This document shows, piece by piece, positions 2,337-64,000 of a stretch of 64,000 nt of DNA. Under the pieces are notes generated by a model, which worked only from the letters and a program-made list of their open reading frames with translations, was not told the origin of the DNA and did not search any database. Within the stretch, counting starts at the first letter, position 1. Each line of letters begins with the position of its first letter. Source of the stretch: a virus; the IMG/VR virus record IMGVR_UViG_3300028569_002801, positions 50,716 through 114,715 of that record; one strand, 5' to 3'. The position numbers and the translations under genes are program-made.

Positions 2337-2376
2337 ACAAATAAATTAGTTTTTTTTTCTTTTTTGTAAATCTTTA

Positions 2377-2952: not shown

Positions 2953-2973
2953 AGTTTATTTAATAAATATTAT

Positions 2974-3261: not shown

Positions 3262-3275
3262 ATATTATAAATACT

Positions 3276-6319: not shown

Positions 6320-6345
6320 ATATAATTTTTTTCTTTATTTTTTTA

Positions 6346-10433: not shown

Positions 10434-10466
10434 TTTTTTATTTTATAAATAGTTTATATTGTTTTT

Positions 10467-11609: not shown

Positions 11610-12454
11610 TATGGGTTAACGTATTCATACCAGATTATAGCTTCAGAGGCTAAAGGACCAACACCAACTCTTGTTAATGCTGGAGTTTCTTTATATATTT
11701 TATATTCATATGTTGAATAATCTATATCTACTTTATAGTAAAAGTACTGTGATTTATCAAAGTTGTACACCGTAGGTCCAACTAATGACGATTGTGGTGT
11801 GTTCATCATTCTTACAAATTGTCCTTTTTTTGCATTAAAGAATTTAGCACTCATATAAAATGTGGTGTTTGTTAAATATGATGGGTTTTTCAACCAATAA
11901 TAAAAAAACCCCTCTTTATCTGCACCAACATAATCAAGTAAAAATTTTGGTTTTTTAACGTCTACCTGTGTAGGATTTAAAATTGGACCAATGAAACCAG
12001 GTTCTTTTAATCCTTGTTGTGTTGGTAGTACCACTGAAAAAAGTATCTTTTGATTTTCAGGTACTTTAGTGTCGTAAAAATCCAATTTAAAAAAACTACC
12101 TTTAAATGAATTTGCAAAATAATATATCTCACTGTCAGTAAAAGTCGCATACTGATAATCATCTAACCAATTAGTGATTGATGGTGGGTTATTCATAAAG
12201 TCTGTTGTTGTTGCTGGATCAAAAAAGTTAAATTGGTAGTATATCTCTGTTTTATCTTGATTTAAATCCCACGGCGCGTGAGCAAATTTTGTAGTTTCAA
12301 AATCATCAATACCGTTTATCGCCTTTTTAACAACTTCGGATTCATATTCCTCAACACCCATTTCCCTACCTTCGGTATCAAAAGATAATTCAATAGGTAT
12401 AATAACATCTCTATCATTAACATTAAGATTAAATCTATAGTAATTATTATTCAC
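11609..12454 (-). CDS. hypothetical structural protein
   Basis: 281 aa, translationally coupled within the baseplate operon. Confidence 0.55.
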   Translation of the reverse strand: MNNNYYRFNLNVNDRDVIIPIELSFDTEGREMGVEEYESEVVKKAINGIDDFETTKFAHAPWDLNQDKTEIYYQFNFFDPATTTDFMNNPPSITNWLDDYQYATFTDSEIYYFANSFKGSFFKLDFYDTKVPENQKILFSVVLPTQQGLKEPGFIGPILNPTQVDVKKPKFLLDYVGADKEGFFYYWLKNPSYLTNTTFYMSAKFFNAKKGQFVRMMNTPQSSLVGPTVYNFDKSQYFYYKVDIDYSTYEYKIYKETPALTRVGVGPLASEAIIWYEYVNP

Positions 12455-21650: not shown

Positions 21651-21678
21651 AAAAAATCCCAACTTACCGTTGGGATTT
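21651..21678 (-). terminator. intrinsic terminator ending the replication/RNR block
   Basis: Stem aaatcccaac/gttgggattt, loop ttacc, followed on - strand by a U-tract. Confidence 0.8.
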
Positions 21679-21688
21679 ATGTAATTAA

Positions 21689-21904
21689 TTATTGTAATTT
21701 AGTATTACCTTTTTCATAACTGGGTTCAAATGGGCAATGTAAACATTTATTACCACAACACTTGCCTCGTTTTTTGTGATACTCTTCAGTCATTACCATT
21801 CTACCGTTTTTATCGTAATAAAAGTCTGTAGGAAGGAGTTTAGGGTTAATAAACTCCTTCACATATAACTCTTGTATCCAATCTTTAGATGCCCCTACAT
21901 TCAT
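21689..21904 (-). CDS. small Cys-rich protein (DUF5522-like)
   Basis: MTEEYHKKRGKCCGNKCLHCPF pattern. Confidence 0.75.
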   Translation of the reverse strand: MNVGASKDWIQELYVKEFINPKLLPTDFYYDKNGRMVMTEEYHKKRGKCCGNKCLHCPFEPSYEKGNTKLQ

Positions 21905-36932: not shown

Positions 36933-39900
36933 TTAATTAAACGTTTTTTTCAAATTAAATTTATTCCACTGTGAGTTTTGATCCGACCACACCTCTTTTA
37001 AATTAGTATCATTAGGTGGATTAATAGGGTTTTGAGTCTCATAGTTTAAAATCCTAGTTTTTTCCTTATTATATGGATTATAGGTGTTGTATTTATTTTT
37101 ATAGAAATTATCATTGAATGACTTAAATCTATTATCAACATTAGTTTTTGATTTATTATAACTATCAACTAATCCCGTATCTTTAGTGTAGAATGTTACA
37201 CCAAAATATGCCTTCCAATTATCTTTCGTTTGAGTATCCTCATTTTTCAATCCATTATCAACAACATCATTACTAAACCCTTCAGCGTCTAAAGCAATAT
37301 CTTTTCCAAATAACATAAAAAATCTATTTTCAGGTGGTGTTGTATATGACGGATCATCTGCAATATATGTATTAAACACAAATGTATCATTAAACGAATC
37401 GGTATCCCCTGATGCGATAATTTTTGTTTCGTATAGTTTGTTATAATATTCATTTAAATCTGAACGTATTTTTAAGAAATCTTGTACAAGTTCTGAATAG
37501 GTGTCAGTCACACCAACACTTGCAGGATCAACACCTGTTCCCCCACTTAAACTATACATAACAACACTACCGTTTTTAGCGATATAACCGTCATTAGCAC
37601 TTGTTACAAAATTTAATTTATCAATTGTACTGATTAATTTTAATTCCTCATTTGCAATTGTCGTATTACAATTTTCTAATAATGCCAAAAGTACGGAACC
37701 CCTATCATCAATTAATTTTTTAATTTGTCTTTTTATTTTTCTTATATCTGAATCTGCAAAATTTTGGTATTGTACTTCAGGTAATAAAGGGCACGTTCCA
37801 TCATCAACATCGTTTTTTGCTTCTTTTACTAGTAATTCAATTTTATTTTGTATTGATTCCGATTTACCGTATATATTTGCAGTGTTTGTTGTGTTACCTG
37901 TTAAATAGTCAAATAACCCATCAGTGAATTTCCTATCTTTTGTCGACATTAAAAGCCCCCCTAATAGATAATTTTCATTAATTTTTTCTAAATTGGTAAT
38001 TGTAGTGTCAGCGTACGATTTTGTTTGATCAGCTAATGTTTTCATAATATCTTGATATGATATTGTCCCGTAAGCCTTTTGAGTATTTAAATCATATGAG
38101 TTTGTTTTTATAGCTCCAATAGTATCTCCAGCATCATTTGTTCTTTGTTTTACAGGATCATCTTTTATACCTAACTGATCTTTTATGTCTGCCAAGATTT
38201 CAGCATCGTATTGTGATGTTGCATCCTCAGTGGAGTCAGCCCTTTCATCATAGATTTCAGTGTTTGCGTAGTAATTAAAAGACAGTGCGTTTTGTAGTTT
38301 AGCTATTGGTGCTGCCAATCCATGTCCACCAATAAAATTAAAACTAACACTAATGTCAGCAATCATTGGCTGTACACCAATACCTTCGGGATTTAAATCA
38401 AATTTTGCATCTTCATATTTAATACTTAATGAGTCGATTGCTATTTTTGTGTGAAAGAAATCCCCAATTCTTAAAACACATATAGGTGGAGCCCCAAATA
38501 CACTGTTTGTTACATCGTTGTAAATTAACTTTGTGTTTTCTCCGTCTTTTGATACTGTAGGTATCGTGTCTCCGGGTCTCATACATTGTTGTAAAAACGT
38601 TAATCTAGCATTTAACCCTTCAGGAGTTATTGAATGGAAAACCGGATGAAAATGTTTAAGTTTACTTTTTAAACCATCATATATCATAGGATCCCTTTGT
38701 TTTACTAATTCAAAATAATTACACTCGGTTAATAATTTTCTTGCAAGTCTTTTGGTTAAGTCTTGTCTTGGTTGGGTTGTTCTTTTTACTATAGGGTCTT
38801 GTTTTTGTCTTGTTGTTGTATAACCTGCAGGATCATTACTTGGGATTCCTGATGTTGTGGTACTACCATTTCCCGGATTTTCTTCAGGTTCAGTAAATAC
38901 TTCCTCATTAGGCGGGTTATCGTTTGTTTGCGTTGATGGTGGTTGCTCAACATCTACCTGTGGTGGTGCCTCATGTTTTACATCAAGTATCCTAACACGT
39001 CTACACGCCATAGCATTTACTGATACCGTACCCTCATTACTATCACTTTTATAATCTCTACTACAATCAATGTATTTGTATTTTGGATCGATGATATTAG
39101 TCGTCTCACCTTCGGGTGTTTGTGTTATTGTTAAATTTTTTCCTATTTCATTTTTTAGTTTTACTCCATCATATTCAAAGTTAGATATAAATTGTAATAC
39201 TGAATCTATTCTTCTTTTTGATAAATCTAAGTTGTATCCAGTGTTAGTTACTGCTGATGCTGATGATTTTAAAGTGAAAGATATTTTACCTCCTTGTTTT
39301 AATGCAATACAAACCTGCGTTAAAAACGCCTTTACTTCTTCAAACTCAGCATCAATATACCCAAAAAATTCATTAATTGAGTCTATTCTTGTCTCAATAT
39401 AGTCTCCTAAATATTTTTCTTGTAATTCTATTGCTCCGTTTATAATTGTATTAACATAATCAACATAAGTTGCATCACCATATTTAATTATTTTTTTTCT
39501 TGCTGCTCCAAAATTTCTTATACCATCACTACCCCCTGTATCATAAAGTGGTTTTAAATTCTTATATGCTATAAGTGTTTGATCGTAAGATTTACCAGCT
39601 TTAGTTGGTTCTGTTGATGATTTCATTCTTGGGAAATCGTTATGGAAAAAAAATAATGGTTCGGTAAACTTTAATACTTCTGGCTCAGGTGGTTCGGTAA
39701 ACACATCTATAGTTGATACTGTAGGTGTTGGCGTTGGGTTAGGTATTGGTGTTGGTGTTGGATTAGGTATTACATCCTCATCAACCAAGTTTTCAACAGT
39801 CTCATTAGGCAACATTTCAGTAACCGTTATTATATCTTCCGGATAGATTATTTCTTCCATTACCTGAAAAACATCATTAGGCGTAAACATTGGGAATTTT

Positions 39901-42900
39901 TTAACTAAATCATATAAATCGTATTTAGTACATCCAGCAAAAAATGAATCTAAAACTTTTGTTATTTCAGATTCAGGTGTTAAATTTTCTAACTCTCTAT
40001 CTAAAATAACATTCATAATAGATGGGTGATCCACAATAATTTTCCAACTTACATTACCTTTTCTTGTTGTATTACTATACGTATATATTGGTTCAGGTCT
40101 TCCTAAGAACGTATTATCCGTCCAATTAGTATTAATTGATTCGTCAAAATTTAAATCGTATGGTGGGAACCACATAATTCTACCTCCATTTGGTCCCTTT
40201 TCACAATCAGGTAAATCTTCATACGTATATCCAGGTCTATTTGATGTTCTCCAAGACAAATTTTCTAATGAGAACATATATTTTTTCACCTTTCCTCCTT
40301 GAATATTTGTCGATTCGGTTCCTTTCCAAGGAGCAATATTTAAATTAAATGTGTTATCCAACACTGAATTTGTAAATTTACGACCCGACGTTGTTATACC
40401 ATCGGTTTTTTGTAACTCATCATGTGAATAGTATGGACGATCTTTAGTGAATACCCTACAATACTCATATCCCTTTGCCGTTGCGGTTCTATCCTCTTTA
40501 GGTAACGATGTTTTTGTTGTGTATCTCACAACTCTTGACCCCTTAGTTAACTCAATATACCCATCATTAAAAACTTTAGACACTTGGTTTATTGCATTAC
40601 CTACGTGTTGGAGTTTGTTTGCTGATCTATTTCCAGCATCTATTAATTTTTGTGTAACATCTAATATTGAATTTTCCGTAAATTCATAATTAGTGGACTT
40701 TGTTGGTTCATATACTGAACTAATGTTTGAAAAATTATATTTACTATTATCTTTAAACGCTTCTCCTCCAGGACCAGCAAAATCTCCAGGTAATATATAA
40801 TTTTTACTCCCTCTACCTGCTTTAGAAATCCAAGTAAATCCTGCTTGTACACCATTTAATCCGTCAAAATATGGACGACTATTTAATCCACTATATATTT
40901 CACTTATTTTTGTCCCCTCATATTCCTCACCAACTTTACCATATGAAAATACCGCACTTCTGTCTGTTGCAATACCTTTAATTTTACTTTCAGGTAATTC
41001 ACCATCGGGTGAAACAATCTCAGTAATTGAAGATTTTCTATTTCCTATATAATATTTTCCTTGTGGTGCTAAAAGGTTATTACCAATTTTATAATCAGGT
41101 CTAAAATTATTTAATCTTAACTGATCATATAATAAATCCCTTGTGGCAACAGATGTGAACTCGACGAATAATTCTGATGCCGATTGGTTTTTAGGTTGTA
41201 ACATTCTAAATACCCCACCAATTGCACCCCCAATTGCCGATAATGGGTTATTGAATATAGCAGAACCTTTCTTATCTGGATAATCAAAATATTCTCCAGG
41301 TATGTAAGAATACGGAGAGTACGTCCCCGCTAATTTTGCCGCAAAGTTTATCGCTTGTCCTAAAAATAAAACAGGGTTAGTGATTGAGTAATTTCTAGAT
41401 ATTATAGGTATTTGTCCTGATAATATACCAAGAGCGTTAAACGGATCTAAGTTTGGTTCTGCAGATATTTGTCCCGTATCAGGGTTAACTTGAGAATTTA
41501 ATAAATTTACCCTACCAAGTGTTTGTTGTAGTAACTCTAACGCTACTCTATGTTTAAATTCTTTTTGTAGTTGTTTTGCTGCAAGATTTGCAAGTGCCGA
41601 ATCTTGTGATAAATTACCATCTGAACCACTTGGATCATTACTTATTAGTATACTTGCAGGACTATATGTAGAAGGTAGAAATATAAACGTATTATCAGAA
41701 TTTGCATATGGTAATCCCGTATTTGGTATTTCTAAATCGTCTATTGTTAATATTGGGTATTTACCGTTACCTGTGACATATTTGTTTATTATATATGCGT
41801 CATTTGCTTCAACATCACCAACATTTTCTAATTCACTATCAATAGTATCAGGAAACCCATACTCACCTTCATTAGTTTTTACTTGGTAATTTTGATTAAT
41901 AATAACAGAATCTTTATCTATAATCTGAGGTCCGTACTGATTTGTTGCAATAAGTATCGGTCTATCAAGTTTACCCTCTTGATATAAATCACTATTTATT
42001 GTGTCTCCGTAGTTATAGTTACCTCTTGGTTGGATTGGTTTTGGTATAAACGCAAACGGTGAAACTTCCGTCTCACTTTGCCCTCCTTCAGGTCTATATA
42101 TGTTTTTAACTATTAAAGTTATTTTAGTCTCCCCCCCAATAGTTTCTAAATCACTACCAAACGTATCCCAAAAATTATAATTACCTTCATTAGAACCTAA
42201 TGTTAAAACATTATTTATATCGTAACGACTATTACCATATTGCGTACTATTCTCAGGTGAATATTTGTTTTTAACTATTAGTACTGTCTCTTGAACATTA
42301 CCTATTTGGTATAGGTAACTGTTAAATGTGTCGTCTATTGTGTATAATCCACTACCTGTCGTTAATATAGATTGGTTATCATTAATATACCAAACGGTAT
42401 TTCCGTAATCTTGTGATGTTGATGGTTTATAAACATTTTTAAGTTTATGAAACACTTCTTGAGTATTCCCTATTTGGTATAGATAACTGTTAAACGTGTC
42501 GTCAATGGTGTATATTCCAGAACCTGTACTTAATATAGTTTGATCATTATTAATTGAGTAAACAGTATTACCATAGTCATCAGGACTTGTCGGTTTATAT
42601 AGGTTTTTTACTTTATGAAAAATTTCTTGATTATTTCCAATTTGGTAAAGGTAACTATTAAGGGTGTCTTGAATGGTATATTCACCATCGCCCATAGTTA
42701 AAATATTTTGATCGTTATTAATGTACCAAACAGTATTACCAAAATCACCTAAACCAAATGGTTTATATACGTTTCTAACTTTGTGTACAACTTCTTGATT
42801 GTCACCTATTGTCTCTAATTTACTACCTATAGTTAGTGGATAACCGTAATTACCTAAATTAGTATTACCAAGTAATGTGGTGTTAATGGTTACGGTGTTA

Positions 42901-43307
42901 CCGTAATTTGTACCTAAACCAATCGGTCCGTATAAATTTTTAACAAACAGTAATGTTTCTTGGTTATCACCTATAGTTTCTAAATTACTCCCCACACTAT
43001 CAGGATATCCGTATTCTCCCTCATTGGATTTGGTTCCTAAATTTAAATTTATTTGTACCACATCACCATAGTAGGTTTTGTTTTCAGGCGTGTATTGGTT
43101 TTTAGTATGAAGAATTTTTTCTTGAACATCACCAACAACTTCAATTTTTGGTGAATCTATGATGGCGTAATCTAAAATTAGAAAATCATTTGTTGCAGGA
43201 ACATCTCCAGTTGAAAACACATTTTCTACTTTATATGGTGGTAAATTTCTTAAAAGTAATTTTTTTCTAAAATTCTCACTTGAATTAAACGATAACGGAC
43301 TTTCCAT
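36933..43307 (-). CDS. giant tail-tube initiator (gp48/gp54/Afp7-like) with N-terminal 56-aa repeats and an inserted OmpA-like domain
   Basis: FPPYDLNFDESINTNWTDNTFLGRPEPIYTY and PPICVLRIGDFF...IDSLSIKY...PMIADISVSF are tube-initiator motifs. SASA...YNLDLSKRRIDSV...GE...RRVRI is OmpA-C-like. Located between tape measure and LysM genes. Confidence 0.7.
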   Translation of the reverse strand: MESPLSFNSSENFRKKLLLRNLPPYKVENVFSTGDVPATNDFLILDYAIIDSPKIEVVGDVQEKILHTKNQYTPENKTYYGDVVQINLNLGTKSNEGEYGYPDSVGSNLETIGDNQETLLFVKNLYGPIGLGTNYGNTVTINTTLLGNTNLGNYGYPLTIGSKLETIGDNQEVVHKVRNVYKPFGLGDFGNTVWYINNDQNILTMGDGEYTIQDTLNSYLYQIGNNQEIFHKVKNLYKPTSPDDYGNTVYSINNDQTILSTGSGIYTIDDTFNSYLYQIGNTQEVFHKLKNVYKPSTSQDYGNTVWYINDNQSILTTGSGLYTIDDTFNSYLYQIGNVQETVLIVKNKYSPENSTQYGNSRYDINNVLTLGSNEGNYNFWDTFGSDLETIGGETKITLIVKNIYRPEGGQSETEVSPFAFIPKPIQPRGNYNYGDTINSDLYQEGKLDRPILIATNQYGPQIIDKDSVIINQNYQVKTNEGEYGFPDTIDSELENVGDVEANDAYIINKYVTGNGKYPILTIDDLEIPNTGLPYANSDNTFIFLPSTYSPASILISNDPSGSDGNLSQDSALANLAAKQLQKEFKHRVALELLQQTLGRVNLLNSQVNPDTGQISAEPNLDPFNALGILSGQIPIISRNYSITNPVLFLGQAINFAAKLAGTYSPYSYIPGEYFDYPDKKGSAIFNNPLSAIGGAIGGVFRMLQPKNQSASELFVEFTSVATRDLLYDQLRLNNFRPDYKIGNNLLAPQGKYYIGNRKSSITEIVSPDGELPESKIKGIATDRSAVFSYGKVGEEYEGTKISEIYSGLNSRPYFDGLNGVQAGFTWISKAGRGSKNYILPGDFAGPGGEAFKDNSKYNFSNISSVYEPTKSTNYEFTENSILDVTQKLIDAGNRSANKLQHVGNAINQVSKVFNDGYIELTKGSRVVRYTTKTSLPKEDRTATAKGYEYCRVFTKDRPYYSHDELQKTDGITTSGRKFTNSVLDNTFNLNIAPWKGTESTNIQGGKVKKYMFSLENLSWRTSNRPGYTYEDLPDCEKGPNGGRIMWFPPYDLNFDESINTNWTDNTFLGRPEPIYTYSNTTRKGNVSWKIIVDHPSIMNVILDRELENLTPESEITKVLDSFFAGCTKYDLYDLVKKFPMFTPNDVFQVMEEIIYPEDIITVTEMLPNETVENLVDEDVIPNPTPTPIPNPTPTPTVSTIDVFTEPPEPEVLKFTEPLFFFHNDFPRMKSSTEPTKAGKSYDQTLIAYKNLKPLYDTGGSDGIRNFGAARKKIIKYGDATYVDYVNTIINGAIELQEKYLGDYIETRIDSINEFFGYIDAEFEEVKAFLTQVCIALKQGGKISFTLKSSASAVTNTGYNLDLSKRRIDSVLQFISNFEYDGVKLKNEIGKNLTITQTPEGETTNIIDPKYKYIDCSRDYKSDSNEGTVSVNAMACRRVRILDVKHEAPPQVDVEQPPSTQTNDNPPNEEVFTEPEENPGNGSTTTSGIPSNDPAGYTTTRQKQDPIVKRTTQPRQDLTKRLARKLLTECNYFELVKQRDPMIYDGLKSKLKHFHPVFHSITPEGLNARLTFLQQCMRPGDTIPTVSKDGENTKLIYNDVTNSVFGAPPICVLRIGDFFHTKIAIDSLSIKYEDAKFDLNPEGIGVQPMIADISVSFNFIGGHGLAAPIAKLQNALSFNYYANTEIYDERADSTEDATSQYDAEILADIKDQLGIKDDPVKQRTNDAGDTIGAIKTNSYDLNTQKAYGTISYQDIMKTLADQTKSYADTTITNLEKINENYLLGGLLMSTKDRKFTDGLFDYLTGNTTNTANIYGKSESIQNKIELLVKEAKNDVDDGTCPLLPEVQYQNFADSDIRKIKRQIKKLIDDRGSVLLALLENCNTTIANEELKLISTIDKLNFVTSANDGYIAKNGSVVMYSLSGGTGVDPASVGVTDTYSELVQDFLKIRSDLNEYYNKLYETKIIASGDTDSFNDTFVFNTYIADDPSYTTPPENRFFMLFGKDIALDAEGFSNDVVDNGLKNEDTQTKDNWKAYFGVTFYTKDTGLVDSYNKSKTNVDNRFKSFNDNFYKNKYNTYNPYNKEKTRILNYETQNPINPPNDTNLKEVWSDQNSQWNKFNLKKTFN
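41790..43103 (-). repeat. about 8 tandem ~56-aa (168-nt) coding repeats
   Basis: Consensus KNxYxP...YGNTVxxINxxxxxxxxxGxYxxxDTxxSxLxxIGxxQE. Copies 3-5 are highly similar at DNA level. Confidence 0.85.
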
Positions 43308-43345: not shown

Positions 43346-45163
43346 TTATGCAATTACACCCTGTTGTTTTTTGTACGATTCTAACTTATATAACACTGTA
43401 TCCATTATTTGTTTTTGTACTTTAGGGTCTTCAAATATTTTTGAAATGTTTCCTCCATCTCCATTTACGCTACCCCCAACATTTATATTTATATCTAATT
43501 TCCCTGATCCACCACCAACTTGATTTAAATAATTTCCTAAATTAGTCCCGACAGCAATTTGATCATCAGGTAATGTTTTATACATTTCACCTCTACCTTT
43601 AATAATTGCTGCACCTGAAGATGGTAAAAAACCATCAGACATAGGCTTACCTTCTTCTATTTCTTTTTTCTTTTTTTCCAGATCCACTCTTCTGTTTTCC
43701 GTTTCCATTGGTGTCTTCGTTCTATCCGCTCCAACAATTTCGTTAATTTTAGATGCCCCTGTTGCTGCCGCTTGGTTAAGACCATCAAGTCCTCGCACAG
43801 TTGTTGGTGCTGCCATATCGGCAGCATCTTTAAATGTGTTACCTAAACCCTCGTTGGTTGTTTTTATATCTTTAAGGAATTTATCTCTATCAGGAATATT
43901 TTTTATAACCGCCTCTTTAATAATATTAACATCTTTTGCTTGATTTTCGGTTATTGTCATTTGAGCGACGGCTAAATCTTTTTCTGATAACGCAGCCTTG
44001 TCTTGATAAACTTTTAATGCTTTTTGTGTGTCCGCATTTTGAAGTTGTGCCGCTTCTATTTTTTTAAATCCCGGTATATCTATTGAGACTTTTCCGTCTT
44101 TACCTATCTCAGCCAATCCCGCAACTAATGATTGTGTATCTTCAGACATTGATCCTAAATCAAATTTATCTTTTAGATAATCCATTTTTGATGCTTCTTT
44201 TCCTGCTTCAAGTAATTCATCAAAATTTTGACCCGTTATTCTAGCTTGTTCTCTTAATCTATATAAATCTTCTGTTGACGCTTCAAACCCACCCGTCGCT
44301 TTATTAAATGTAAATGCCGCCTTTGTTGAGTTTATAAGTTCTTTTTGTAATCCAGCCATGTCACTTTGTGCCATGTGCATTAGTTGAAATGGGTCAGCTA
44401 ACTTTCCAACCGCACCACCTAACATTTGCATACTTGCTGCCGCCTCAATAGCCTTTTCTGGATCCAATAGATTACTAGCGAATCCTTTAGCCCCTATTTT
44501 ATCTACGGTAGTTCTTAACAACATGGCTTGTTTAACCATATTTTTCATACCATCAATACCCGTTTTAAATCCAAAACCACTAACCGCCTTTACGTTTGTT
44601 CCGATTTCTTTAAGATAGGATTTAGCACTTAACCCCGCCTGTCTTGCTTCTACCGATAAATCATGTATTTTTTTTGTTGCTTCCTCCTGTGTACCACCAA
44701 ACCTTGTCATATCGGTTATTAACATAGCGATTTCTTTTGTGGACTCTCCCGTTGCTTTAGACAACTCCACAATATTTTGTAAAACTTGGGTACTTGGATT
44801 TACTATTCTTCCCATACCTTCCGATAATCCCTCAACAGCAGTTGTAACATCTTTAAAAGATGAACCAATATCCATAGTAGCGGTATACGCTAAATACATT
44901 TTTTCTCTGAACTTATCAGTACCCATAGCAACACCACCCATTGATCTCTGTAACGATAACGCCTGATCGTTCATAGAAATAAGTTCTTTATTTGCGTTTT
45001 CTAAAATGGTTTTCCAACTTGTACTTACAACAAAGTTAGTTAAAGCCTTTTTTAAGTCTTCTATTTGTTCAATAGTTCCTTGGGTATTCGCGTATTGACT
45101 AGTACCGCCGTCTCCGGCGGTACTTGCAACATTAGAATCAGAAGATACGGAATATAGAAACAT
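43346..45163 (-). CDS. tape measure protein
   Basis: Helical Ala/Gly/Lys/Met-rich 605 aa, positioned after the tube and chaperone genes and before the tube initiator. Confidence 0.7.
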   Translation of the reverse strand: MFLYSVSSDSNVASTAGDGGTSQYANTQGTIEQIEDLKKALTNFVVSTSWKTILENANKELISMNDQALSLQRSMGGVAMGTDKFREKMYLAYTATMDIGSSFKDVTTAVEGLSEGMGRIVNPSTQVLQNIVELSKATGESTKEIAMLITDMTRFGGTQEEATKKIHDLSVEARQAGLSAKSYLKEIGTNVKAVSGFGFKTGIDGMKNMVKQAMLLRTTVDKIGAKGFASNLLDPEKAIEAAASMQMLGGAVGKLADPFQLMHMAQSDMAGLQKELINSTKAAFTFNKATGGFEASTEDLYRLREQARITGQNFDELLEAGKEASKMDYLKDKFDLGSMSEDTQSLVAGLAEIGKDGKVSIDIPGFKKIEAAQLQNADTQKALKVYQDKAALSEKDLAVAQMTITENQAKDVNIIKEAVIKNIPDRDKFLKDIKTTNEGLGNTFKDAADMAAPTTVRGLDGLNQAAATGASKINEIVGADRTKTPMETENRRVDLEKKKKEIEEGKPMSDGFLPSSGAAIIKGRGEMYKTLPDDQIAVGTNLGNYLNQVGGGSGKLDININVGGSVNGDGGNISKIFEDPKVQKQIMDTVLYKLESYKKQQGVIA

Positions 45164-47865: not shown

Positions 47866-50800
47866 TTATACGTCATCAAAAGATGCTCCAGTCGGTGTGA
47901 TAACAAACTCGATGTCTATATATTCTAACGCTCTTGTTGGTTTCAAGTAGATTTTACCTGTTAAAGTATTTGAATCTAAATCTTCAGGTGTGTTTGAAAC
48001 CGCCACACGGAAATCAATTAAACCTCTATCTCTTCTGATACTATCCAATATTGGGTTAACAGAATCTAAAAAGTCTTGTCGTACTTTTTGATCGTTTTGT
48101 TCAAACAATAACCTAATTGCTACAGCTGAAATCAATTTACGTGCTTGTAATAACAATCTTCTAACGTTGATTCTATCAAGTGCAGATTCTTTAATTTGCA
48201 TTGTTTTGTTACCCCAAATTACCGTACCTACATCGGAGAAAGTAGCGATTGGGTTAATTCTACCTTTATAAAGTGTATCTCTATCGTCTTGTGTTAATTT
48301 ACGTCTCGCTCTAATTGCGTTAACTAAACCTCTTGTGTACCCCGCAGATGCGAACCAAGGGAACGCAATGTTATCGGTTAATGCTAAATTCTTAACCACT
48401 TCAGAAGTTGGTGGAATATAGATTTGTGTATTGTTAACTGCATCTCTTGTTAAAATCCAAGGGTAGTATGATGCTGTATAGTTAGAATCAATACCTGTTG
48501 CTTCTAAGTTATCAACTACTTGTTGTGGATAAATAAGTCCCTCTTCAATATCGTTGTATGATGGTAAGTATAAATTAAAATCAGGGGTAGTACAAATATA
48601 AATTGAATCCGCTCTATCCGTTTCAATCATATCAATAGCCTCCTCAACTAAATTTGAGTTGTTCACATAGTCAATTCCTGGTGTAGTAAATATGTTAATA
48701 TTTGTCGCTTCAGGATTTGCAAATGTGTTTTGTCCCCATTTATATGCGTAATAGTCAGTATTAGCCCAATTTTCTTGGTTAGGTCCTGATATTGCTTTGA
48801 ATGCTCCCCACCCTGTTGCGGTTGGGTATGTAATACTTGGTTCAGCACCATATTTAAAACCTGATTGTCCTAATGCATATGTGTCTTCATTTGTTCTATA
48901 TTCTCTATATATGTCCCATCCGTCAAAACCTCCGTAAGCCATTAAAGTAAACTTACGAGTGTTTAATCTATAATAAGGACTAGAAGTATCTGTTGGTTCA
49001 GAATTAAATGATCCGACGCCAACCTCAAACGCTGATTGTCCTGATGTTGCGTAACCATTAGCAATCGTTACTACAGTTGCCCCACTATCCATGTGGAATC
49101 CTTTAGTAATATATCCCCATTCCATACCTGTAGTGTCGGTACCTAAATTAGGAGGTAATTGTTTACCCTTATATTCAAAGAAATCATAATCAATTCCTGA
49201 TATGTTTGATATGCCTAAATATGCCTTTCTTGGGTTTTCACCACTTGATATTACGGGATTGTCTCCACCATTAGAAGAACCAAAAGGAGGGTTATAAACA
49301 ACATCACCAGGTTTGAAATATTTAGTCTTATAAACTAAGTATGGAGGAGTTGCGTTGGCGTACTCTCTACTGATATACCCCTCAAATCCACAAGGAAGAG
49401 CATCTATTGGTGATTCCTCACTCATTTCTAACATTATATATTTAGAATTAACTTTGTATTCTCCGTTTGATGTCCCTATTTTATTAGCCACGTAATTGTT
49501 ATTAGACGGATCCAAAGAACAATTAGTGAAACTTTCAATAACTCTTGGGTTTTGATCAGTATCATAAAAATCTCTTATGAATACATCAAAGGTACTTGAG
49601 TTAAAGGATATGTTACCTATCGACATCTTTACAAGTCTGTTTGCTGCGTTTCCATCGGAAATTAAAACAAATTTAAATAACTTGTAAACTTTATTACCTC
49701 TAAGTTCTGAAACCAAAAACGGAGTTGCTGGTGTTTGATATTGTTCTAAATAGAATCCTATTGAATCGTTATTTAACGATCTTGCTCCTGGTAAATCTAT
49801 CAAATCACAATATAATCCTCTAATCTTTCCTGATCTATAACCTGTAGTTAAAAGACTTGTATATGTTTCTTCAACAAATAAAGGAACCTGAGTTCTATCT
49901 TTACCAAAGTTATTTCTTCCAAATACTTTAGAAATGAAGTTTTTATCTGAGGACAACATTGACGTTTGGAATTCAAACACATCACCGTCGGACGATACTC
50001 CTGAAATTGAGAATGGTAAATAAGGGTTTTTAGTCACCGCAGAATACGAACCTGTACAAATCATTTGTACGTCGGTAACTCCTGTTACTTCATAAGATGG
50101 TCCTGACTGAGTTGAGTTATAATTAGAAATACCTCTTGATCTTAATGTCGCAACGACTAAATCATCGTAATCTAAGAATGGTGTACCTGAATAATTAGTA
50201 TTATAGAAAACACAAGAACCTGAGAAGTTACCACTTGAACCTGTTAAAGTACTTAGTGCAGCCCCAAAACCTTGTCCATAATATGAACTAATATCAGTAA
50301 TTGGGTTTTGTGAATAATTAAATAATGCATAGTACCAAGCATCATTAGTTGTTGCCGATAAATTAGCTAAAGATAAATTTACATTATTTACACCAAAAGA
50401 CTCTGTGTATGCTGTAATTGTACCAGTACCATTTAATGTTGTACCTGTAACTAAATTGAATGTACCTCCACTTACGGTACCCCAAAATAGTGCGGTAGAT
50501 CCTGTGGATGGTGAAGCATTTGCAAATGCATTAACTTGACTTGATATGAATACTCTTAAATCAGAATCAATAGTAGATGTCCCCCCATTAAATTCTGTAT
50601 ATGTATTGTAAAAATTATTATTAACATTGATTGTACTTGGTACAGTCATGTTGTAAGTAATATTAGCACTTGTACCCGTAGTTCCTGTAAATGTTAAAAT
50701 AGTTGAAGAAACTCCCGTTGCCGCAACTGTGGAAGGGTTAACGTTACCTATTGTTGTGATTGACCAAGATGGTCCTGCGTCGTATCCTGATAATCCTAAT

Positions 50801-51087
50801 ACTCTTGTTACAAAAAGTTGATTTGATTGTTGTAGGTATGCCTTAGTAATATATGCTAATTCATATTTAGGTATTTGTGTGTTAACGAATTTTTCAGGAC
50901 TTGTGCCACCAAAATATACTTGAAACTCGTCAAAGTTTGTGATAAATATTGGTTCAAAAGCGGGACCCTGAAGAGTTTCACCAACTACACCTAAAGTTGT
51001 TACACCTACACTTTGTGCAACAAAAGTTAAATCTCTTTCTGAAGTGTAGACTCCAGGTGAAACGAAAACTTTGTTTGATGATGCCAT
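47866..51087 (-). CDS. contractile tail sheath protein (T4 gp18-like) with insertions
   Basis: VSPGVYTSERD, PWFASAGYTRG, RDTLYKGRINPI, WGNKT, LDRINVRRLL, KPTRALEYI. Confidence 0.95.
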   Translation of the reverse strand: MASSNKVFVSPGVYTSERDLTFVAQSVGVTTLGVVGETLQGPAFEPIFITNFDEFQVYFGGTSPEKFVNTQIPKYELAYITKAYLQQSNQLFVTRVLGLSGYDAGPSWSITTIGNVNPSTVAATGVSSTILTFTGTTGTSANITYNMTVPSTINVNNNFYNTYTEFNGGTSTIDSDLRVFISSQVNAFANASPSTGSTALFWGTVSGGTFNLVTGTTLNGTGTITAYTESFGVNNVNLSLANLSATTNDAWYYALFNYSQNPITDISSYYGQGFGAALSTLTGSSGNFSGSCVFYNTNYSGTPFLDYDDLVVATLRSRGISNYNSTQSGPSYEVTGVTDVQMICTGSYSAVTKNPYLPFSISGVSSDGDVFEFQTSMLSSDKNFISKVFGRNNFGKDRTQVPLFVEETYTSLLTTGYRSGKIRGLYCDLIDLPGARSLNNDSIGFYLEQYQTPATPFLVSELRGNKVYKLFKFVLISDGNAANRLVKMSIGNISFNSSTFDVFIRDFYDTDQNPRVIESFTNCSLDPSNNNYVANKIGTSNGEYKVNSKYIMLEMSEESPIDALPCGFEGYISREYANATPPYLVYKTKYFKPGDVVYNPPFGSSNGGDNPVISSGENPRKAYLGISNISGIDYDFFEYKGKQLPPNLGTDTTGMEWGYITKGFHMDSGATVVTIANGYATSGQSAFEVGVGSFNSEPTDTSSPYYRLNTRKFTLMAYGGFDGWDIYREYRTNEDTYALGQSGFKYGAEPSITYPTATGWGAFKAISGPNQENWANTDYYAYKWGQNTFANPEATNINIFTTPGIDYVNNSNLVEEAIDMIETDRADSIYICTTPDFNLYLPSYNDIEEGLIYPQQVVDNLEATGIDSNYTASYYPWILTRDAVNNTQIYIPPTSEVVKNLALTDNIAFPWFASAGYTRGLVNAIRARRKLTQDDRDTLYKGRINPIATFSDVGTVIWGNKTMQIKESALDRINVRRLLLQARKLISAVAIRLLFEQNDQKVRQDFLDSVNPILDSIRRDRGLIDFRVAVSNTPEDLDSNTLTGKIYLKPTRALEYIDIEFVITPTGASFDDV

Positions 51088-60933: not shown

Positions 60934-61572
60934 TTATTTATTTTTATTTTGAAAGTATTTTTCAATTCTTTTACTTAATCTAACTCTTGGATCATTTTCT
61001 GTTCTATTTAAAATTTCATAAGGTAAAATAAAACCAAAACTCAAAAAAATCCTTCTTGAATTAAACTCGTTTGTCCAATGTTTATATAGTGACGCTTCAA
61101 AACCATAAAGATCGGTTTCTTGTATCTTAATAGACTCCTTATCCAAAAATAGATCGTAATCTTCTGACAATACACTTATGTTACATTTGTAATTAACATA
61201 TCCATCAATTGACGCATCATAATGGGGATTTATTTTTCCACCTTTATTCATATCAACCGACTGTAAGAAAATGTTGTCCTTTGGGAAATTAAACTCTTCT
61301 GATATTCTATCTATAATTTTATAAATAAATTCAGGTAGGTTTTCATTTGAAACGTCAGATATTGATTGAAATTTTGTAATGTAATTTGTTAAAGGTGTTT
61401 TAGAAATATCAAACATATAAGATTTACCATTAAGTGTTTTAGATAATTCTGTAAGGTGATGGTTACTATCATTACCGTTGTGATTAACAGAATCAATCCA
61501 ATTTACTATTTGGTTTACTTCATCTTTTGTGATAAATTTTTTTTTTATCTTATATGTTTCTGTATTTTCCAA
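60934..61572 (-). CDS. 2OG-Fe(II) oxygenase (prolyl-hydroxylase-like)
   Basis: GGKINPHYD (HxD) ... YKHW (distal His) ... RRIFLSF (2OG-binding Arg). Confidence 0.75.
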   Translation of the reverse strand: MENTETYKIKKKFITKDEVNQIVNWIDSVNHNGNDSNHHLTELSKTLNGKSYMFDISKTPLTNYITKFQSISDVSNENLPEFIYKIIDRISEEFNFPKDNIFLQSVDMNKGGKINPHYDASIDGYVNYKCNISVLSEDYDLFLDKESIKIQETDLYGFEASLYKHWTNEFNSRRIFLSFGFILPYEILNRTENDPRVRLSKRIEKYFQNKNK

Positions 61573-61822: not shown

Positions 61823-62404
61823 TTAATTATATACTCTTATTTCTATTGGGGTTTTCCAATATAATACATCATTATAAGGTGTTGATATATCTCCTGTAAC
61901 AATTCCGCAACTGTTAGGTTCTGACATATACCCTCTGCATAAATATCCATTTTCTAAATCATCTCCCATCAGAATAATACTAAAAGTAGTTTTATTTTCT
62001 GTAAATAATCCATTTGAATAAATACTGTAATTTCCAACTCCATCATAAGTAAACCAAATATTTCCAATAGTGTTCTCTAACACTGTTACTATTGGAGCCG
62101 CTGTGTTGTATCCCAACATACCAACCCCGTCCCAACTATTAGGTTCTTTATTTGATGTGGCAACAAATGAATAATATTCTGGATGAACCGGTCCCCCCAC
62201 ATTACTAAAATCCCAAGTACCTCTATCAAACACATCCAAAAGTTGATATGATACACCCTCACCAACTTTACCACCTGTAATGGTTTTTGGGTCATCTACA
62301 CCAATCTGTGTTAATAAAGCAGTGTACACTTTATATTTAGGTAAAATTGATTCACCATTTATGGTTTGTCCTCTTAAATTATCTACAATGTATTTTGTCG
62401 ACAT
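61823..62404 (-). CDS. putative fibre tip/decoration protein
   Basis: YKVYTALLTQxG...APIVTVLENTIG...TPIEIRVY, a pattern I recall from Bacteroidota phage fibre C-termini. Confidence 0.55.
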   Translation of the reverse strand: MSTKYIVDNLRGQTINGESILPKYKVYTALLTQIGVDDPKTITGGKVGEGVSYQLLDVFDRGTWDFSNVGGPVHPEYYSFVATSNKEPNSWDGVGMLGYNTAAPIVTVLENTIGNIWFTYDGVGNYSIYSNGLFTENKTTFSIILMGDDLENGYLCRGYMSEPNSCGIVTGDISTPYNDVLYWKTPIEIRVYN

Positions 62405-62424: not shown

Positions 62425-63501
62425 TTAATCAATCGGTAATCCAGCCATATAACCAACTGTTATATCACTCCACCCAATACCAAATTCGTATTTCATAACT
62501 TTATCAACAACAACGTATGATTCAAATTGTGTTGTACCGGAACTAACATCACTATTAATAAAAATACCACTTAAAAAATATACATCGTTTGTGGTATTAG
62601 CGGTTACTTGGCTTGGTAAATTTGTAATAATATAATCATAAGCAGAATCCCTAATAGTTTCTGTGGTAAATATCATTTGTTTATTATAAACCTCTTCAGT
62701 AGTTCCTGTGAATCCACTTAAAGTAGATTTAAATGGCCATAAAATATCTGTCAATTTCCAAAAAGAATAATTTTCATTATTAAAAGGTGCATTATTTTGA
62801 TCTGGCACTGAACTTAGTTGATTTACAACTTGATCAATCGCTCCCGCAACCGCTCCACAGGTATTATCTGTTAAACTATTTGCTTTACCTCTTCTTAACA
62901 TTCTACCTGAACGACCATCTTCAGTAACACCAATGTGTGGTGTACTTGTTACAAACAAGGTTCCACCAAGAGTTGTTGCTACGTGACTTGCAAATGCCCC
63001 AAATCCAACACTACCAACAAACGGATAACCTGCCAATCCACCGGACATAAACGGACCTAAAAATGAATTAATACTTGTTGGCCATCCACCGATATTTCCT
63101 GGTAAATATGCCGCATCAACATCATCAGAACAAATACCTTCCGCTAAAACAATGTCAGTTGATGGTATTCCTTCATCTGTAATATATTGTGTTGTGTATG
63201 TCCCCCATACTTCAGATAATACCGCTCCTGAGAATGGTTGATATCCTCCATCAACAGTAACAGTTCTTACCGTTTGAGTATATGCACTCTGACCTGTTAA
63301 TGGTGCTGGTACAATTATTTCATATGTTCTATCATATAAAGGAACCTCTAATTCGTATGTCCCATAAGGATAAACCGAAATATTATTAAATGGTATTACT
63401 TCGGTACCTAAATTAATGGTTCCACCAGTTGTGGGTAAAAAAGTAACGTTTGCCGTTAGTCCTGATAAATTTGTGCTTGTTATTCTAATTCCTTGTATCA
63501 T
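62425..63501 (-). CDS. LCIB/C-type beta-carbonic anhydrase domain fused to an N-terminal virion-type beta domain
   Basis: ICSDD ... FMSGGLAGYPFVG...GAFASH ... PHIG...G..G...R.G ... CGA is the LCIB/C (PF18599-like) Cys/His/Cys Zn-ligand pattern. Confidence 0.78.
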   Translation of the reverse strand: MIQGIRITSTNLSGLTANVTFLPTTGGTINLGTEVIPFNNISVYPYGTYELEVPLYDRTYEIIVPAPLTGQSAYTQTVRTVTVDGGYQPFSGAVLSEVWGTYTTQYITDEGIPSTDIVLAEGICSDDVDAAYLPGNIGGWPTSINSFLGPFMSGGLAGYPFVGSVGFGAFASHVATTLGGTLFVTSTPHIGVTEDGRSGRMLRRGKANSLTDNTCGAVAGAIDQVVNQLSSVPDQNNAPFNNENYSFWKLTDILWPFKSTLSGFTGTTEEVYNKQMIFTTETIRDSAYDYIITNLPSQVTANTTNDVYFLSGIFINSDVSSGTTQFESYVVVDKVMKYEFGIGWSDITVGYMAGLPID

Positions 63502-63529
63502 TTTTTTTGTTTTTTTATTTTTTATTTAT

Positions 63530-64000
63530 TTATAATATTAATCCGAAATTCAAATCATTTTCTGGTATGTCTAACACATTTAATCCACCTAAACAAGGTG
63601 CTTCAGTTAATGTTTCTATTGTTAGAACATCCACTTCATCGTAATACGACAATCTATTATCACCATTTTTATTTTTAAATACATTAACTGTTGTGATATC
63701 ATATAACATACCTGTACTTAAACAAGTACCAAAAACTTCGGCATTAACAATATTCCATTGGAAATAATCCCCAACTGTATTCTCGGTAAAGTTATCAGGT
63801 ATCGTATTATTGTAGAAGTATTCTCCAATAGTATTATCATTAAAATTATTTCCAATTCTATTTCCTTGAGAACTTCCAACACCAAAACCAAATCCATCTT
63901 GTATTTCATTAGAATTGAAATAAGTTCCTATTGTGTTATATGAGAATGAACCATAACAAGTATTAAATGAAAAATCATCTCCAATATTGTTATGTGTTGT
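63530..64000 (-). CDS. 3' end of a beta-helix fibre/tailspike-like protein (partial)
   Basis: Manual translation: ...NNIGDDFSFNTCYGSFSYNTIGTYFNSNEIQDG...NRIGNNFNDNTIGEYFYNNTIPDNFTENTVGDYF...NFGLIL*; 9-aa N-x-IG-x-x-F repeats. Confidence 0.75.
   Translation of the reverse strand, partial: TTHNNIGDDFSFNTCYGSFSYNTIGTYFNSNEIQDGFGFGVGSSQGNRIGNNFNDNTIGEYFYNNTIPDNFTENTVGDYFQWNIVNAEVFGTCLSTGMLYDITTVNVFKNKNGDNRLSYYDEVDVLTIETLTEAPCLGGLNVLDIPENDLNFGLIL

What the first reader, a model, noticed from the sequence alone, without database searches (positions are those of the whole stretch)
62425..63501. LCIB/C-type beta-carbonic anhydrase fused to a virion-like anchor domain
Seen: residues ~90-340 have the LCIB/C pattern with putative Zn ligands Cys (ICSDD, ~63131), His (PHIG, ~62936) and Cys (CGA, ~62858), plus the GGLAGxPFxG motif. 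Residues 1-~66 (MIQGIRITSTNLSGLTANVTFLPTTGGTINLG...PYGTYELEV) are a Thr/Gly-rich beta module resembling the structural proteins here, and both neighbours are fibre-like genes. Known: LCIB/LCIC belong to the algal CO2-concentrating mechanism, with bacterial homologues including active carbonic anhydrases. Inference: either a rare phage auxiliary carbonic anhydrase, or a virion-displayed enzyme or co-opted fold that alters local pH/CO2 or mediates binding.
Basis: partly seen in the sequence, partly recalled or inferred. Interest (0 to 1): 0.8.

Follow-up and report, generated by a model that had tools for sequence, protein, structure and literature searches.

The report
Phage LCIB-type carbonic anhydrase on handle
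An uncultured large lake-water phage encodes an intact algal-type (LCIB/theta) zinc carbonic anhydrase joined to a small N-terminal "handle" that related phages put on many other surface-type proteins, so the enzyme probably rides on the virus particle, though neither that nor its activity has been tested.

Summary
The ORF at 62425-63501 (-) is real and has two domains. Residues 104-333 match Pfam PF18599 (E 2e-27). A confident model (pLDDT 93.9) superposes on LCIB-family structures 6kfs and PtLCIB4 (TM 0.81-0.82). The zinc ligands Cys124, His189 and Cys215, plus Asp126, Arg203 and Ser125, are invariant in 120 close homologue clusters. A beta-CA-like homodimer is predicted through this domain alone.

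Residues 1-66 form a separate Ig-like beta-sandwich. It opens at least 50 other protein clusters with unrelated C-termini, often after a Pro-Thr linker. In a 91%-complete relative, three such paralogues lie between terminase and portal. This 114-kb record holds no second copy.

The gene follows a beta-helix-repeat fibre-like gene and precedes a swappable cassette gene. Relatives carry the promoter-like motif found before tail genes here; in this window it is degenerate.

Best reading: a late, dimeric, active carbonic anhydrase docked on the virion (about 0.5). Main rival: a cytoplasmic bicarbonate-supplying enzyme (about 0.3). Phage-type LCIB proteins form a clade apart from bacterial ones. 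I found no paper describing them. This scan has already noted the same gene family in at least 13 other genomes.

The parts
62425..63501 (-). Whole gene, 358 aa plus stop: N-terminal handle module, linker and LCIB-type carbonic anhydrase domain
   Evidence: ORF list. There are 274 homologous clusters at E <= 0.001; the 120 best listed are 77-95% identical and almost all full length. AF2 model pLDDT 93.9, pTM 0.87.
63304..63501 (-). N-terminal handle module, residues 1-66: six-strand Ig-like beta-sandwich
   Evidence: Residues 3-75 match the N-termini of more than 50 other 50%-identity representatives of 83-785 aa at 50-64% identity. Stand-alone model has pLDDT 83. Only generic beta-sandwich fold matches, Z <= 6.3.
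63193..63303 (-). Connecting segment, residues 67-103 (helix 71-79 and start of the CA domain). Many paralogues have a Pro-Thr linker here instead.
   Evidence: Secondary structure of the model; N-terminal sequences of module partners.
62503..63192 (-). LCIB/theta-type beta-carbonic anhydrase domain, residues 104-333
   Evidence: PF18599 E 2e-27. Foldseek: 6kfs E 1e-14 TMt 0.82, 5b5y E 1.5e-14 TMt 0.81, classical beta-CAs near 1e-4 to 1e-3. 110 of 230 columns are invariant among 120 close clusters.
63130..63132 (-). Cys124, first zinc ligand (CSDD). Ser125 follows, as in active PtLCIB4. Asp126 is at 63124-63126.
   Evidence: Alignment to 6kfs and PtLCIB4. C124, S125 and D126 are kept in 120 of 120 close clusters. 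Among 120 representative rows, C is present in 101 and D in 103, and most of the rest are gaps.
62935..62937 (-). His189, second zinc ligand (PHIG)
   Evidence: 120 of 120 close clusters and 115 of 120 representatives.
62857..62859 (-). Cys215, third zinc ligand (TCGA). The conserved Arg203 (RRG) is at 62893-62895.
   Evidence: C215 in 120/120 and 115/120; R203 in 120/120 and 114/120.
63520..63540 (-). A/T-rich stretch 10-30 nt before the ATG. It holds a degenerate copy (TATTATAAATA) of the TATTTAT promoter-like motif and overlaps the stop codon of the upstream gene.
   Evidence: Sequence. Relatives have ATATTTAT[AT]A at this place. TATTTAT lies before 13 of 41 window genes, mostly tail or baseplate genes, where about 1 is expected. 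The T4-type TATAAATA is not enriched.
63530..64000 (-). C-terminal 156 aa of the upstream gene, cut by the contig end. It is a beta-helix-type 'N-x-I-G-x-x-F' repeat protein of 714-857 aa in relatives.
   Evidence: Full-length relatives in L014 and L006 are 55% identical to each other. No Pfam, PHROG or PDB sequence match.
61823..62404 (-). Downstream 193-aa gene, a swappable cassette. It has a conserved 18-residue N-terminus (MxTKYIVxN..GQTING) and then unrelated sequence.
   Evidence: lengths of 185-427 aa across relatives. The gene is absent in several. The L014 version hits phrog_4577 'tail protein' at 4e-7.

Best explanation
The gene encodes a two-domain protein of a large T4-like lake phage whose host is probably a Bacteroidota bacterium. 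The C-terminal 270 residues are an LCIB/theta-type beta-carbonic anhydrase. Two copies pair through this domain, as in other beta-CAs. Each zinc is held by Cys124, His189 and Cys215, with Asp126 and Arg203 positioning the zinc-bound water, and the enzyme interconverts CO2 and bicarbonate. The two N-terminal Ig-like modules stay free of the dimer interface. I infer that they act as handles that dock the enzyme on a virion structure. The same handle docks the other proteins that carry this module: BspA-like leucine-rich-repeat proteins, a beta-propeller protein and Pro-Thr-linker proteins. The gene is probably expressed late with the fibre-like genes around it. Shown: domain identity, fold, an intact catalytic residue set, modularity of the handle, and the clade's separation from bacterial homologues. 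Inferred: activity, dimer, late expression, virion location. What a particle-borne CA does is unknown. My guess is that it speeds CO2/bicarbonate/proton equilibration in the boundary layer at the host surface.
For: Domain and fold:
- PF18599 at 96 bits.
- PDB sequence hits to 6kfs and PtLCIB4, with the ligands aligned.
- AF2 model pLDDT 93.9; Foldseek TMt 0.81-0.82 to LCIB-family structures, with classical beta-CAs next.

Catalytic residues:
- C124, S125, D126, H189, R203 and C215 are invariant in 120 close clusters, and the five catalytic ones (all but S125) are nearly so in more distant representatives.
- The CA domain is the most conserved part of the protein.

Dimer:
- Predicted homodimer score 0.90 against a best control of 0.00. 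That mark was reached by 20 of 30 solved homo-pairs and 1 of 23 solved single chains.
- The runs share at least 65% of contacts and partner pLDDT is at least 77.
- The interface uses residues 115-323 only, including 125-131, 148-156, 203-207 and 216-217 beside the zinc site.
- A like dimer is solved (PtLCIB4), so this shows likeness, not binding.

Handle module:
- It is shared by more than 50 other representative proteins with other C-termini, often after PT linkers.
- One partner carries a DUF5122 beta-propeller.
- In a 91%-complete 272-kb relative, three paralogues of 744-1040 aa lie between the large terminase and the T4-type portal gene; two of them carry DUF285 repeats.
- In a 322-kb relative, one paralogue lies beside a protein that matches a baseplate-wedge/tail-fibre connector PHROG.
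- In L006 three paralogues precede the LCIB gene, separated from it by one fibre-like gene.
- A second phage LCIB lineage (P0133) carries a different N-terminal handle, also shared with at least 35 non-LCIB proteins.

Other:
- The N-terminus has no hydrophobic signal-like stretch (sequence).
- The late-type motif sits before the gene in relatives.
- Lake metatranscriptome assemblies from three studies contain relatives of the gene. This is weak evidence, because DNA carry-over is not excluded.
Against: - No proteomic or structural evidence places the protein on a particle.
- The handle fold is a generic beta-sandwich with no specific match, and its docking partner is unknown.
- This record has no second handle-bearing gene.
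- In the 54%-identity lineage the gene sits directly before the DNA polymerase gene, so the conserved neighbour is a replication gene.
- The motif before the gene in this window is degenerate.
- Many phage-type LCIB proteins have no such handle. This fits a function that does not need a virion.
- By my recollection of Jin et al. 2016, which I could not open, Chlamydomonas LCIB and LCIC have the same ligands but no measurable activity in vitro.
- No obvious benefit of an extracellular CA to a phage is known.
Confidence: 0.5

Rival explanations
1. Cytoplasmic auxiliary metabolic enzyme. The CA works inside the infected cell and raises bicarbonate supply for carboxylations: carbamoyl-phosphate synthetase and the purine carboxylation step for nucleotides, acetyl-CoA carboxylase, and anaplerosis. 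Demand would be high during replication of a roughly 300-kb genome. The N-terminal module would then serve oligomerisation or intracellular scaffolding, not virion docking.
For: The catalytic set is intact and strongly conserved. Many phage-type LCIB proteins have no handle module. In one lineage the gene lies directly before the DNA polymerase gene, and this window also encodes ribonucleotide reductase and helicases. Chromosomal LCIB-type genes are common in heterotrophic Bacteroidota and Acidobacteriota, where a housekeeping CA role is plausible. It is established for E. coli that CA is needed for growth at air-level CO2 (my own knowledge).
Against: The handle module is otherwise found on long repeat, adhesin-like and Pro-Thr-linker proteins, which fit surface proteins better than cytoplasmic enzymes. 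A second LCIB lineage has independently acquired another shared N-terminal handle. The gene sits between a fibre-like repeat gene and a swappable cassette gene. Relatives carry the motif seen before tail genes.
Confidence: 0.3
2. Co-opted, non-catalytic fold. The LCIB domain serves as a binding or structural head on a fibre or decoration protein, as Chlamydomonas LCIB/LCIC reportedly lack in-vitro CA activity, and recognises a host-surface ligand.
For: Its position at the C-terminus of a handle-bearing protein is the place where paralogues carry binding-type domains. Clade-specific insertions relative to bacterial homologues exist, such as the GNIG..P segment between CSDD and LGPF.
Against: All zinc ligands, Asp126, Arg203 and the active-type Ser125 are invariant across 120 close clusters. 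Zinc ligands, Asp and Arg are near-invariant across the phage clade. The most conserved columns surround the active site, whereas receptor-binding heads usually vary fastest. The downstream cassette gene, not this one, shows the swap pattern typical of host-range determinants.
Confidence: 0.1
3. Host-derived passenger gene in a record that IMG/VR labels 'provirus', with no role in the phage.
For: The record is classed as a provirus, and bacterial genomes do carry LCIB-type genes.
Against: The gene is syntenic in 58 viral contigs, including records of 272 kb at 91% completeness. It lies among phage genes for sheath, baseplate, PolB and helicases. Phage-type sequences are separated from 57 bacterial ones by a branch with 100% SH-aLRT support.
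Confidence: 0.02

Closest known systems
PtLCIB4 / PtLCIB3 of Phaeodactylum tricornutum and the LCIB-family protein of PDB 6kfs (LCIB family, also called theta-CA; structurally a beta-CA subgroup; PDB 5b5y, 6kfs, 9vzj)
   Same: Same Pfam family (PF18599). Same fold (TMt 0.81-0.82). Same Cys-His-Cys zinc ligands and the C-S-D motif with Ser after the first Cys, as in active PtLCIB4. Conserved GGL.G.PF.G, PHIG, R.G and CGA motifs. A predicted dimer through the CA domain.
   Different: Only about 20% identical. It is encoded by a phage of a probable heterotroph, not an alga. It has a 66-residue phage-specific N-terminal module and clade-specific insertions. No CO2-concentrating context is evident in the stretches I annotated (not searched specifically). 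Activity is untested.
Chlamydomonas LCIB/LCIC (PDB 5k5w, 5b5x)
   Same: Same family and fold (Foldseek E 4e-9, TMt about 0.7).
   Different: More distant. From my recollection of Jin et al. 2016 (PNAS 113:14716; cited in PMC10096703, full text not held), the algal proteins have Arg where this protein has Ser125, form an LCIB-LCIC complex at the pyrenoid, and lack in-vitro activity.
Chromosomal LCIB-type proteins of Bacteroidota, Acidobacteriota, Planctomycetota and Chloroflexota (about 240 aa, e.g. Chryseobacterium, Chitinophaga, Sphingobacterium, Flagellimonas)
   Same: Same domain and the same invariant residues. They occur in the phylum suspected to be the host.
   Different: They are stand-alone, without the handle module. 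They are 25-30% identical and separated from the phage clade by a long, fully supported branch, so this is not a recent capture from the sampled bacteria.
Modular phage fibre and decoration proteins with a conserved N-terminal anchor and exchangeable distal domains (T4 Hoc-type Ig-like decoration; tail-fibre N-terminal anchors)
   Same: One short N-terminal module precedes many unrelated C-terminal domains. Several paralogues occur per genome inside structural gene blocks. The fold is Ig-like.
   Different: No sequence or specific fold match to any known anchor. No trimeric shaft is present, and the distal domain is predicted to dimerise. The distal domain is a metabolic-type enzyme. No virion evidence exists.

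Membership tests
LCIB / theta-type carbonic anhydrase (PF18599) | Match to the family profile above the curated cut-off | tested here: met
   96.4 bits against a cut-off of 25, E 2e-27, profile positions 12-217 of 223. The six-frame genome search gave the same result.
LCIB / theta-type carbonic anhydrase (PF18599) | Beta-CA-like fold as in solved LCIB-family structures | tested here: met
   Model pLDDT 93.9. Foldseek: 6kfs E 1e-14 TMt 0.82, 5b5y TMt 0.81, LCIC/LCIB TMt about 0.7, classical beta-CAs next.
LCIB / theta-type carbonic anhydrase (PF18599) | Zinc ligands Cys-His-Cys, plus the Asp after the first Cys and a conserved Arg | tested here: met
   C124, H189, C215, D126 and R203 align with the family columns and are invariant in 120 close clusters.
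LCIB / theta-type carbonic anhydrase (PF18599) | Homodimer with the active site at the interface | tested here: met
   Prediction only: score 0.90 against a best control of 0.00 (mark reached by 20 of 30 solved homo-pairs and 1 of 23 single chains). At least 65% of contacts are shared between runs and pLDDT is at least 77. The interface includes residues next to the ligands. The pass may come from likeness to the solved PtLCIB4 dimer.
LCIB / theta-type carbonic anhydrase (PF18599) | Carbonic anhydrase activity and bound zinc | not testable with these tools
   Needs recombinant protein, a CO2-hydration or 18O-exchange assay and metal analysis.
Algal CO2-concentrating mechanism component | Works with Rubisco, the pyrenoid and bicarbonate transporters in a phototroph | not tested
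   The gene is in a phage with T4-like tail and head genes. Its neighbours are fibre-like, glycosyltransferase and replication genes. I ran no search for Rubisco or transporters.
Phage virion protein with a modular N-terminal anchor | The same N-terminal module on several proteins with different distal domains | tested here: met
   More than 50 representative partners. Three to six copies per genome in relatives G001, G004 and G006. Only one copy in this incomplete record.
Phage virion protein with a modular N-terminal anchor | Encoded within structural modules and expressed late | tested here: inconclusive
   Paralogues lie between terminase and portal or next to a baseplate-connector-like gene. 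The LCIB gene lies between a fibre-like gene and a cassette gene, but also next to PolB. The TATTTAT motif is present in relatives and degenerate here.
Phage virion protein with a modular N-terminal anchor | Physical presence in particles | not testable with these tools
   Needs proteomics or imaging of purified particles.
Type IX secretion C-terminal sorting domain (considered because of fold hits) | C-terminal position on a protein with an N-terminal signal peptide | tested here: not met
   The module is at the extreme N-terminus and there is no hydrophobic signal-like stretch. The fold resemblance to several T9SS CTDs is weak, Z 5.4-6.2, in the range of common arrangements.

The most novel reading that the evidence does not exclude
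Phage particles of an abundant lake-water lineage carry an active carbonic anhydrase dimer on their surface. It is plugged in through a universal Ig-like handle next to adhesin-type proteins, and it changes carbonate chemistry and pH in the boundary layer of the host cell as part of finding or infecting that host. This would be the first enzyme of inorganic-carbon metabolism used as a virion component. The repeated fusion of phage LCIB domains to different handles would mark it as a general strategy.
Probability: 0.3. Interest if true: 0.85.

Novelty: new variant of a known kind. Interest (0 to 1): 0.65.

Why it matters
Carbonic anhydrases are textbook cellular enzymes, and the LCIB/theta type is studied almost only in algal CO2-concentrating mechanisms. 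I found a large clade of this family whose traceable members lie on viral contigs, common in lakes, with an intact active site and repeatedly fused to plug-in handles. My searches found no paper describing it. If the enzyme is on the particle, it would be a new class of virion-borne activity and a new use of carbonate chemistry in infection. If it acts inside the cell, it is a new kind of auxiliary metabolic gene that links phage replication to bicarbonate supply. The 66-residue handle is also a candidate general docking system for decorating phage particles.

Tried and rejected
- INPHARED cultured phages have no homologue of the protein. The PolB matches only Salinibacter and Nostoc phages, at about 25% identity.
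- PHROGs has no family for the protein or for its immediate neighbours in the window.
- The T4 late promoter word TATAAATA lies just before the gene, but it is not enriched in the window (24 found against 16.9 +/- 4 expected, on mixed strands). I rejected it as evidence.
- The handle module gave no significant fold match in the PDB (Foldseek best E 0.04; VIA best Z 6.3) or in BFVD (best hit an uncharacterised 740-aa phage protein, E 0.05).
- Several T9SS C-terminal domains rank high among the fold hits. Position and score argue against membership.
- The protein atlas gave nothing usable for the common roughly 700-aa handle partner.
- Pfam gave nothing for most handle partners.
- PDB sequence searches of the upstream and downstream proteins found nothing.
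- A broad LCIB alignment was too divergent for a genome scan. The narrower one used a single peptide pattern, so the bacterial distribution is a biased sample.
- 'Relatives' cannot be drawn for a virus record.
- Jin et al. 2016 could not be opened, so statements about PtLCIB4 residue numbers and LCIB inactivity rest on my memory.
- The metatranscriptome data are contigs from runs found with this very gene. They show presence in RNA libraries only, not strand, level or transcript ends.
- I could not measure ligand distances in the model.

Full report
**What is there.** The window is the last 64 kb of a 114,715-bp IMG/VR virus record, estimated 38% complete, and it ends at the contig end. It encodes a tail sheath, baseplate wedge, DnaB-like helicase, ribonucleotide reductase, exonuclease and a family-B DNA polymerase. 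It is therefore part of a large contractile-tailed phage of roughly 300 kb. Its DNA occurs in many lake-water metagenomes. Cultured phages hold no close relative. The flagged ORF, 62425-63501 on the minus strand, is 358 codons long with an ATG start. It lies 28 bp after the stop of the upstream gene and 20 bp before the start of the next gene.

**The C-terminal domain.**
- Residues 104-333 match Pfam PF18599 (LCIB_C_CA) at 96.4 bits, E 2e-27.
- A sequence search of the PDB finds 6kfs, PtLCIB4 (5b5y) and 9vzj. In those alignments CSDD, GGLAGYPF.G, PHIG, RRG and CGA line up with the family motifs.
- An AlphaFold2 model built from a 65-sequence alignment has mean pLDDT 93.9 and pTM 0.87.
- Foldseek places the model on 6kfs (E 1e-14, TM on target 0.82) and PtLCIB4 (0.81). 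Chlamydomonas LCIC and LCIB follow (about 0.7), then classical beta-carbonic anhydrases.
- In the 120 closest 90%-identity clusters, C124, S125, D126, H189, R203 and C215 are all invariant.
- Among 120 rows from 50%-identity representatives, C, D, H, R and C are present in 101-115 rows, and most of the remainder are gaps.
- The CA domain is the best-conserved part of the protein: 110 of 230 columns are invariant, against 12 of 66 in the N-terminal module.
- Ser125 follows the first Cys, as in PtLCIB4. From memory, that is the active form, while inactive Chlamydomonas LCIB has Arg there. I could not open the paper to confirm this.

**Oligomer.** Two copies with zinc are predicted to pair, with a score of 0.90 against a best control of 0.00. 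That mark was reached by 20 of 30 solved homo-pairs and 1 of 23 solved single chains. The runs share at least 65% of contacts, and pLDDT is at least 77. The interface uses only residues 115-323, including segments that flank the ligands. Because the PtLCIB4 dimer is solved, this shows likeness to a beta-CA dimer rather than proof. The N-terminal modules are not named in the interface.

**The N-terminal module.**
- An exhaustive profile-free search of 1.84 billion representatives shows that residues 3-75 match, at 50-64% identity, the extreme N-termini of more than 50 other proteins of 83-785 aa whose remaining sequence is unrelated.
- In many of these the module ends at about residue 65 and is followed by a long Pro-Thr linker.
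- Most partners have no Pfam family. One carries DUF5122 beta-propeller repeats.
- Modelled alone, the module is a six-strand Ig-like sandwich with pLDDT 83.
- Fold searches return only generic sandwiches: best Z 6.3, including an usher middle domain, FN3 domains and several type-IX-secretion C-terminal domains. The best viral hit is an uncharacterised 740-aa phage protein.
- Relatives do have paralogues. A 272-kb, 91%-complete record has six matches. Three of them (803, 744 and 1040 aa) lie between the large terminase and a T4-type portal gene, and the first two are full of DUF285 (BspA-like) repeats.
- A 322-kb complete record has three matches, one beside a protein that matches a baseplate-wedge/tail-fibre-connector PHROG. 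That record has no LCIB gene.
- In L006 three paralogues lie upstream of the LCIB gene, with one fibre-like gene in between.
- A different phage LCIB lineage (P0133) starts with another handle whose first 30-40 residues recur, at 83-93% identity, on at least 35 non-LCIB proteins.
- Fusion of phage LCIB domains to shared N-terminal handles has therefore happened more than once.

**Neighbourhood.**
- The upstream gene is cut by the contig end here and is 714-857 aa in relatives. It is a conserved 'N-x-I-G-x-x-F' repeat protein with no family match.
- The downstream 193-aa gene shares only its first 18 residues with the 185-427-aa genes at the same place in relatives. It is missing in several of them. 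The L014 version weakly hits a PHROG tail protein. This is the pattern of a swappable host-range cassette.
- In the 54%-identity lineage the LCIB gene is followed directly by the DNA polymerase gene.
- A GT60 GlcNAc-transferase (PF11397) lies within a few kb of the LCIB gene in three diverged lineages, and an HtrL_YibB-family gene accompanies it in two of them.
- The word TATTTAT lies 12-42 nt before 13 of 41 window genes, where about one is expected. These are mostly tail, tube, baseplate and fibre genes. Many relatives have ATATTTAT[AT]A before the LCIB gene, but this window has a one-base-shorter variant.
- Lake metatranscriptome assemblies from three studies contain 88-99% similar pieces of the gene, some bridging into the upstream gene. 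This shows only that relatives are present in RNA libraries.

**Origin.** Stand-alone LCIB-type genes of about 240 aa occur in many heterotrophic bacteria, notably Bacteroidota and Acidobacteriota (biased by a single search pattern). In a maximum-likelihood tree, the 12 phage sequences and the 20 nearest representatives sit on one side of a branch with 100% SH-aLRT support, and all 57 bacterial sequences sit on the other. No algal sequences were included and the root is unknown, so I name no donor.

**Interpretation.** The domain identity and the intact catalytic set are as firm as computation allows, so I take the protein to be an active dimeric carbonic anhydrase (about 0.7).

Arguments for the handle docking it on the virion:
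- The handle's other cargoes are surface-type proteins.
- Paralogue genes sit inside head and tail gene blocks.
- A second handle fusion exists in another LCIB lineage.
- The flanking genes are fibre-like.
- Relatives carry the late-type motif.

Arguments against:
- There is no direct evidence.
- The fold is generic and the docking partner is unknown.
- The gene lies next to PolB in one lineage.
- Handle-less phage LCIB genes exist.

I put the whole best reading at 0.5, a cytoplasmic bicarbonate-supplying role at 0.3 and a non-catalytic binding role at 0.1. What a particle-borne CA would do is conjecture. It can only speed equilibration, so any effect would be on local pH and CO2 at a respiring host surface.

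**Comparison and novelty.** The protein is a member of the LCIB/theta-CA family by profile, fold and residues; activity is untested. It differs from known members in three ways: it is encoded by a phage, it belongs to a separate clade, and it carries a phage-specific handle. Full-text searches found no paper on phage LCIB genes and nothing comparable on phage carbonic anhydrases. This scan has already reported the same gene family in at least 13 other genomes, with the same reading. My analysis reaches the same conclusions independently. It adds the terminase-portal location of DUF285 paralogues, the second handle lineage, the tree against bacterial homologues, the motif statistics and the dimer prediction.

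Noticed in passing
window 60934-61572 (-): The 212-aa protein two genes downstream of the LCIB gene has an H-x-D ... H ... R-x-S pattern. By language-model features it is close to clusters carrying PF05118 Asp_Arg_Hydrox (27% of members, score 0.96) and PF13640 2OG-FeII_Oxy_3 (59%, score 0.95). Pfam itself gave no hit. It may be a protein hydroxylase. Together with the GT60 GlcNAc-transferases of this phage group, that would fit hydroxylation plus glycosylation of Pro-Thr linkers.
   Followed up: partly
window-wide; e.g. before 47866-51087, 36933-43307, 43346-45163, 14191-19224 (all -): TATTTAT, usually as (A/C)TATTTATA, lies 12-42 nt before 13 of 41 genes where about 1 is expected. Most are tail sheath, tube-initiator, baseplate and fibre genes. 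It is a likely late or structural promoter element of this phage group. The T4 word TATAAATA is not enriched.
   Followed up: partly
window 61823-62404 (-); L003-L028 downstream of the LCIB gene: A cassette gene has a conserved 18-residue N-terminus (MxTKYIVxN..GQTING) followed by unrelated bodies of 185-427 aa. It is absent in some relatives. This looks like a swappable receptor-binding protein.
   Followed up: partly
L014 3834-6745; L039 4188-9212; L044 12208-13455: A GT60 GlcNAc-transferase (PF11397) stays within a few kb of the LCIB gene in three lineages that share only 49-95% LCIB identity; an HtrL_YibB-family gene lies beside it in L014 and L039.
   Followed up: partly
L061 (G001:12000-30000) 1830-13007: Four very large genes lie between the large terminase and the T4-type portal in a 272-kb relative. 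Three start with the handle module, and three (the 1062-, 803- and 744-aa proteins) carry many DUF285 (BspA-like leucine-rich) repeats. This is an unusual place for adhesin-like genes and suggests head or neck fibres.
   Followed up: partly
L047 11204-11611; L048 712-1104; L049 9977-10369; G001 21669-21878: Short ORFs or fragments consist of the handle module alone (70-136 aa, one with an internal stop). They lie next to full-length handle genes, including directly before the LCIB gene in L048 and L049. They may be remnants of cassette exchange.
   Followed up: no
model of residues 1-71 (window 63289-63501): Among the weak fold matches of the handle (Z 5.2-6.2) are about seven type-IX-secretion C-terminal sorting domains (RemA, NucA, FspA, RemZ, PorZ, mirolase, RgpB) and Bacteroides DUF3244 proteins. 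All come from the phylum suspected to be the host. The scores are in the range of common arrangements, and the module is N-terminal, so this is only a curiosity.
   Followed up: partly
P0133 and relatives: A second phage LCIB lineage starts with a MANLTLRSTKGSALTNTELDGNF-type N-terminus. That N-terminus recurs on at least 35 non-LCIB proteins of 209-623 aa, and one source names one of them a trimeric autotransporter adhesin.
   Followed up: partly
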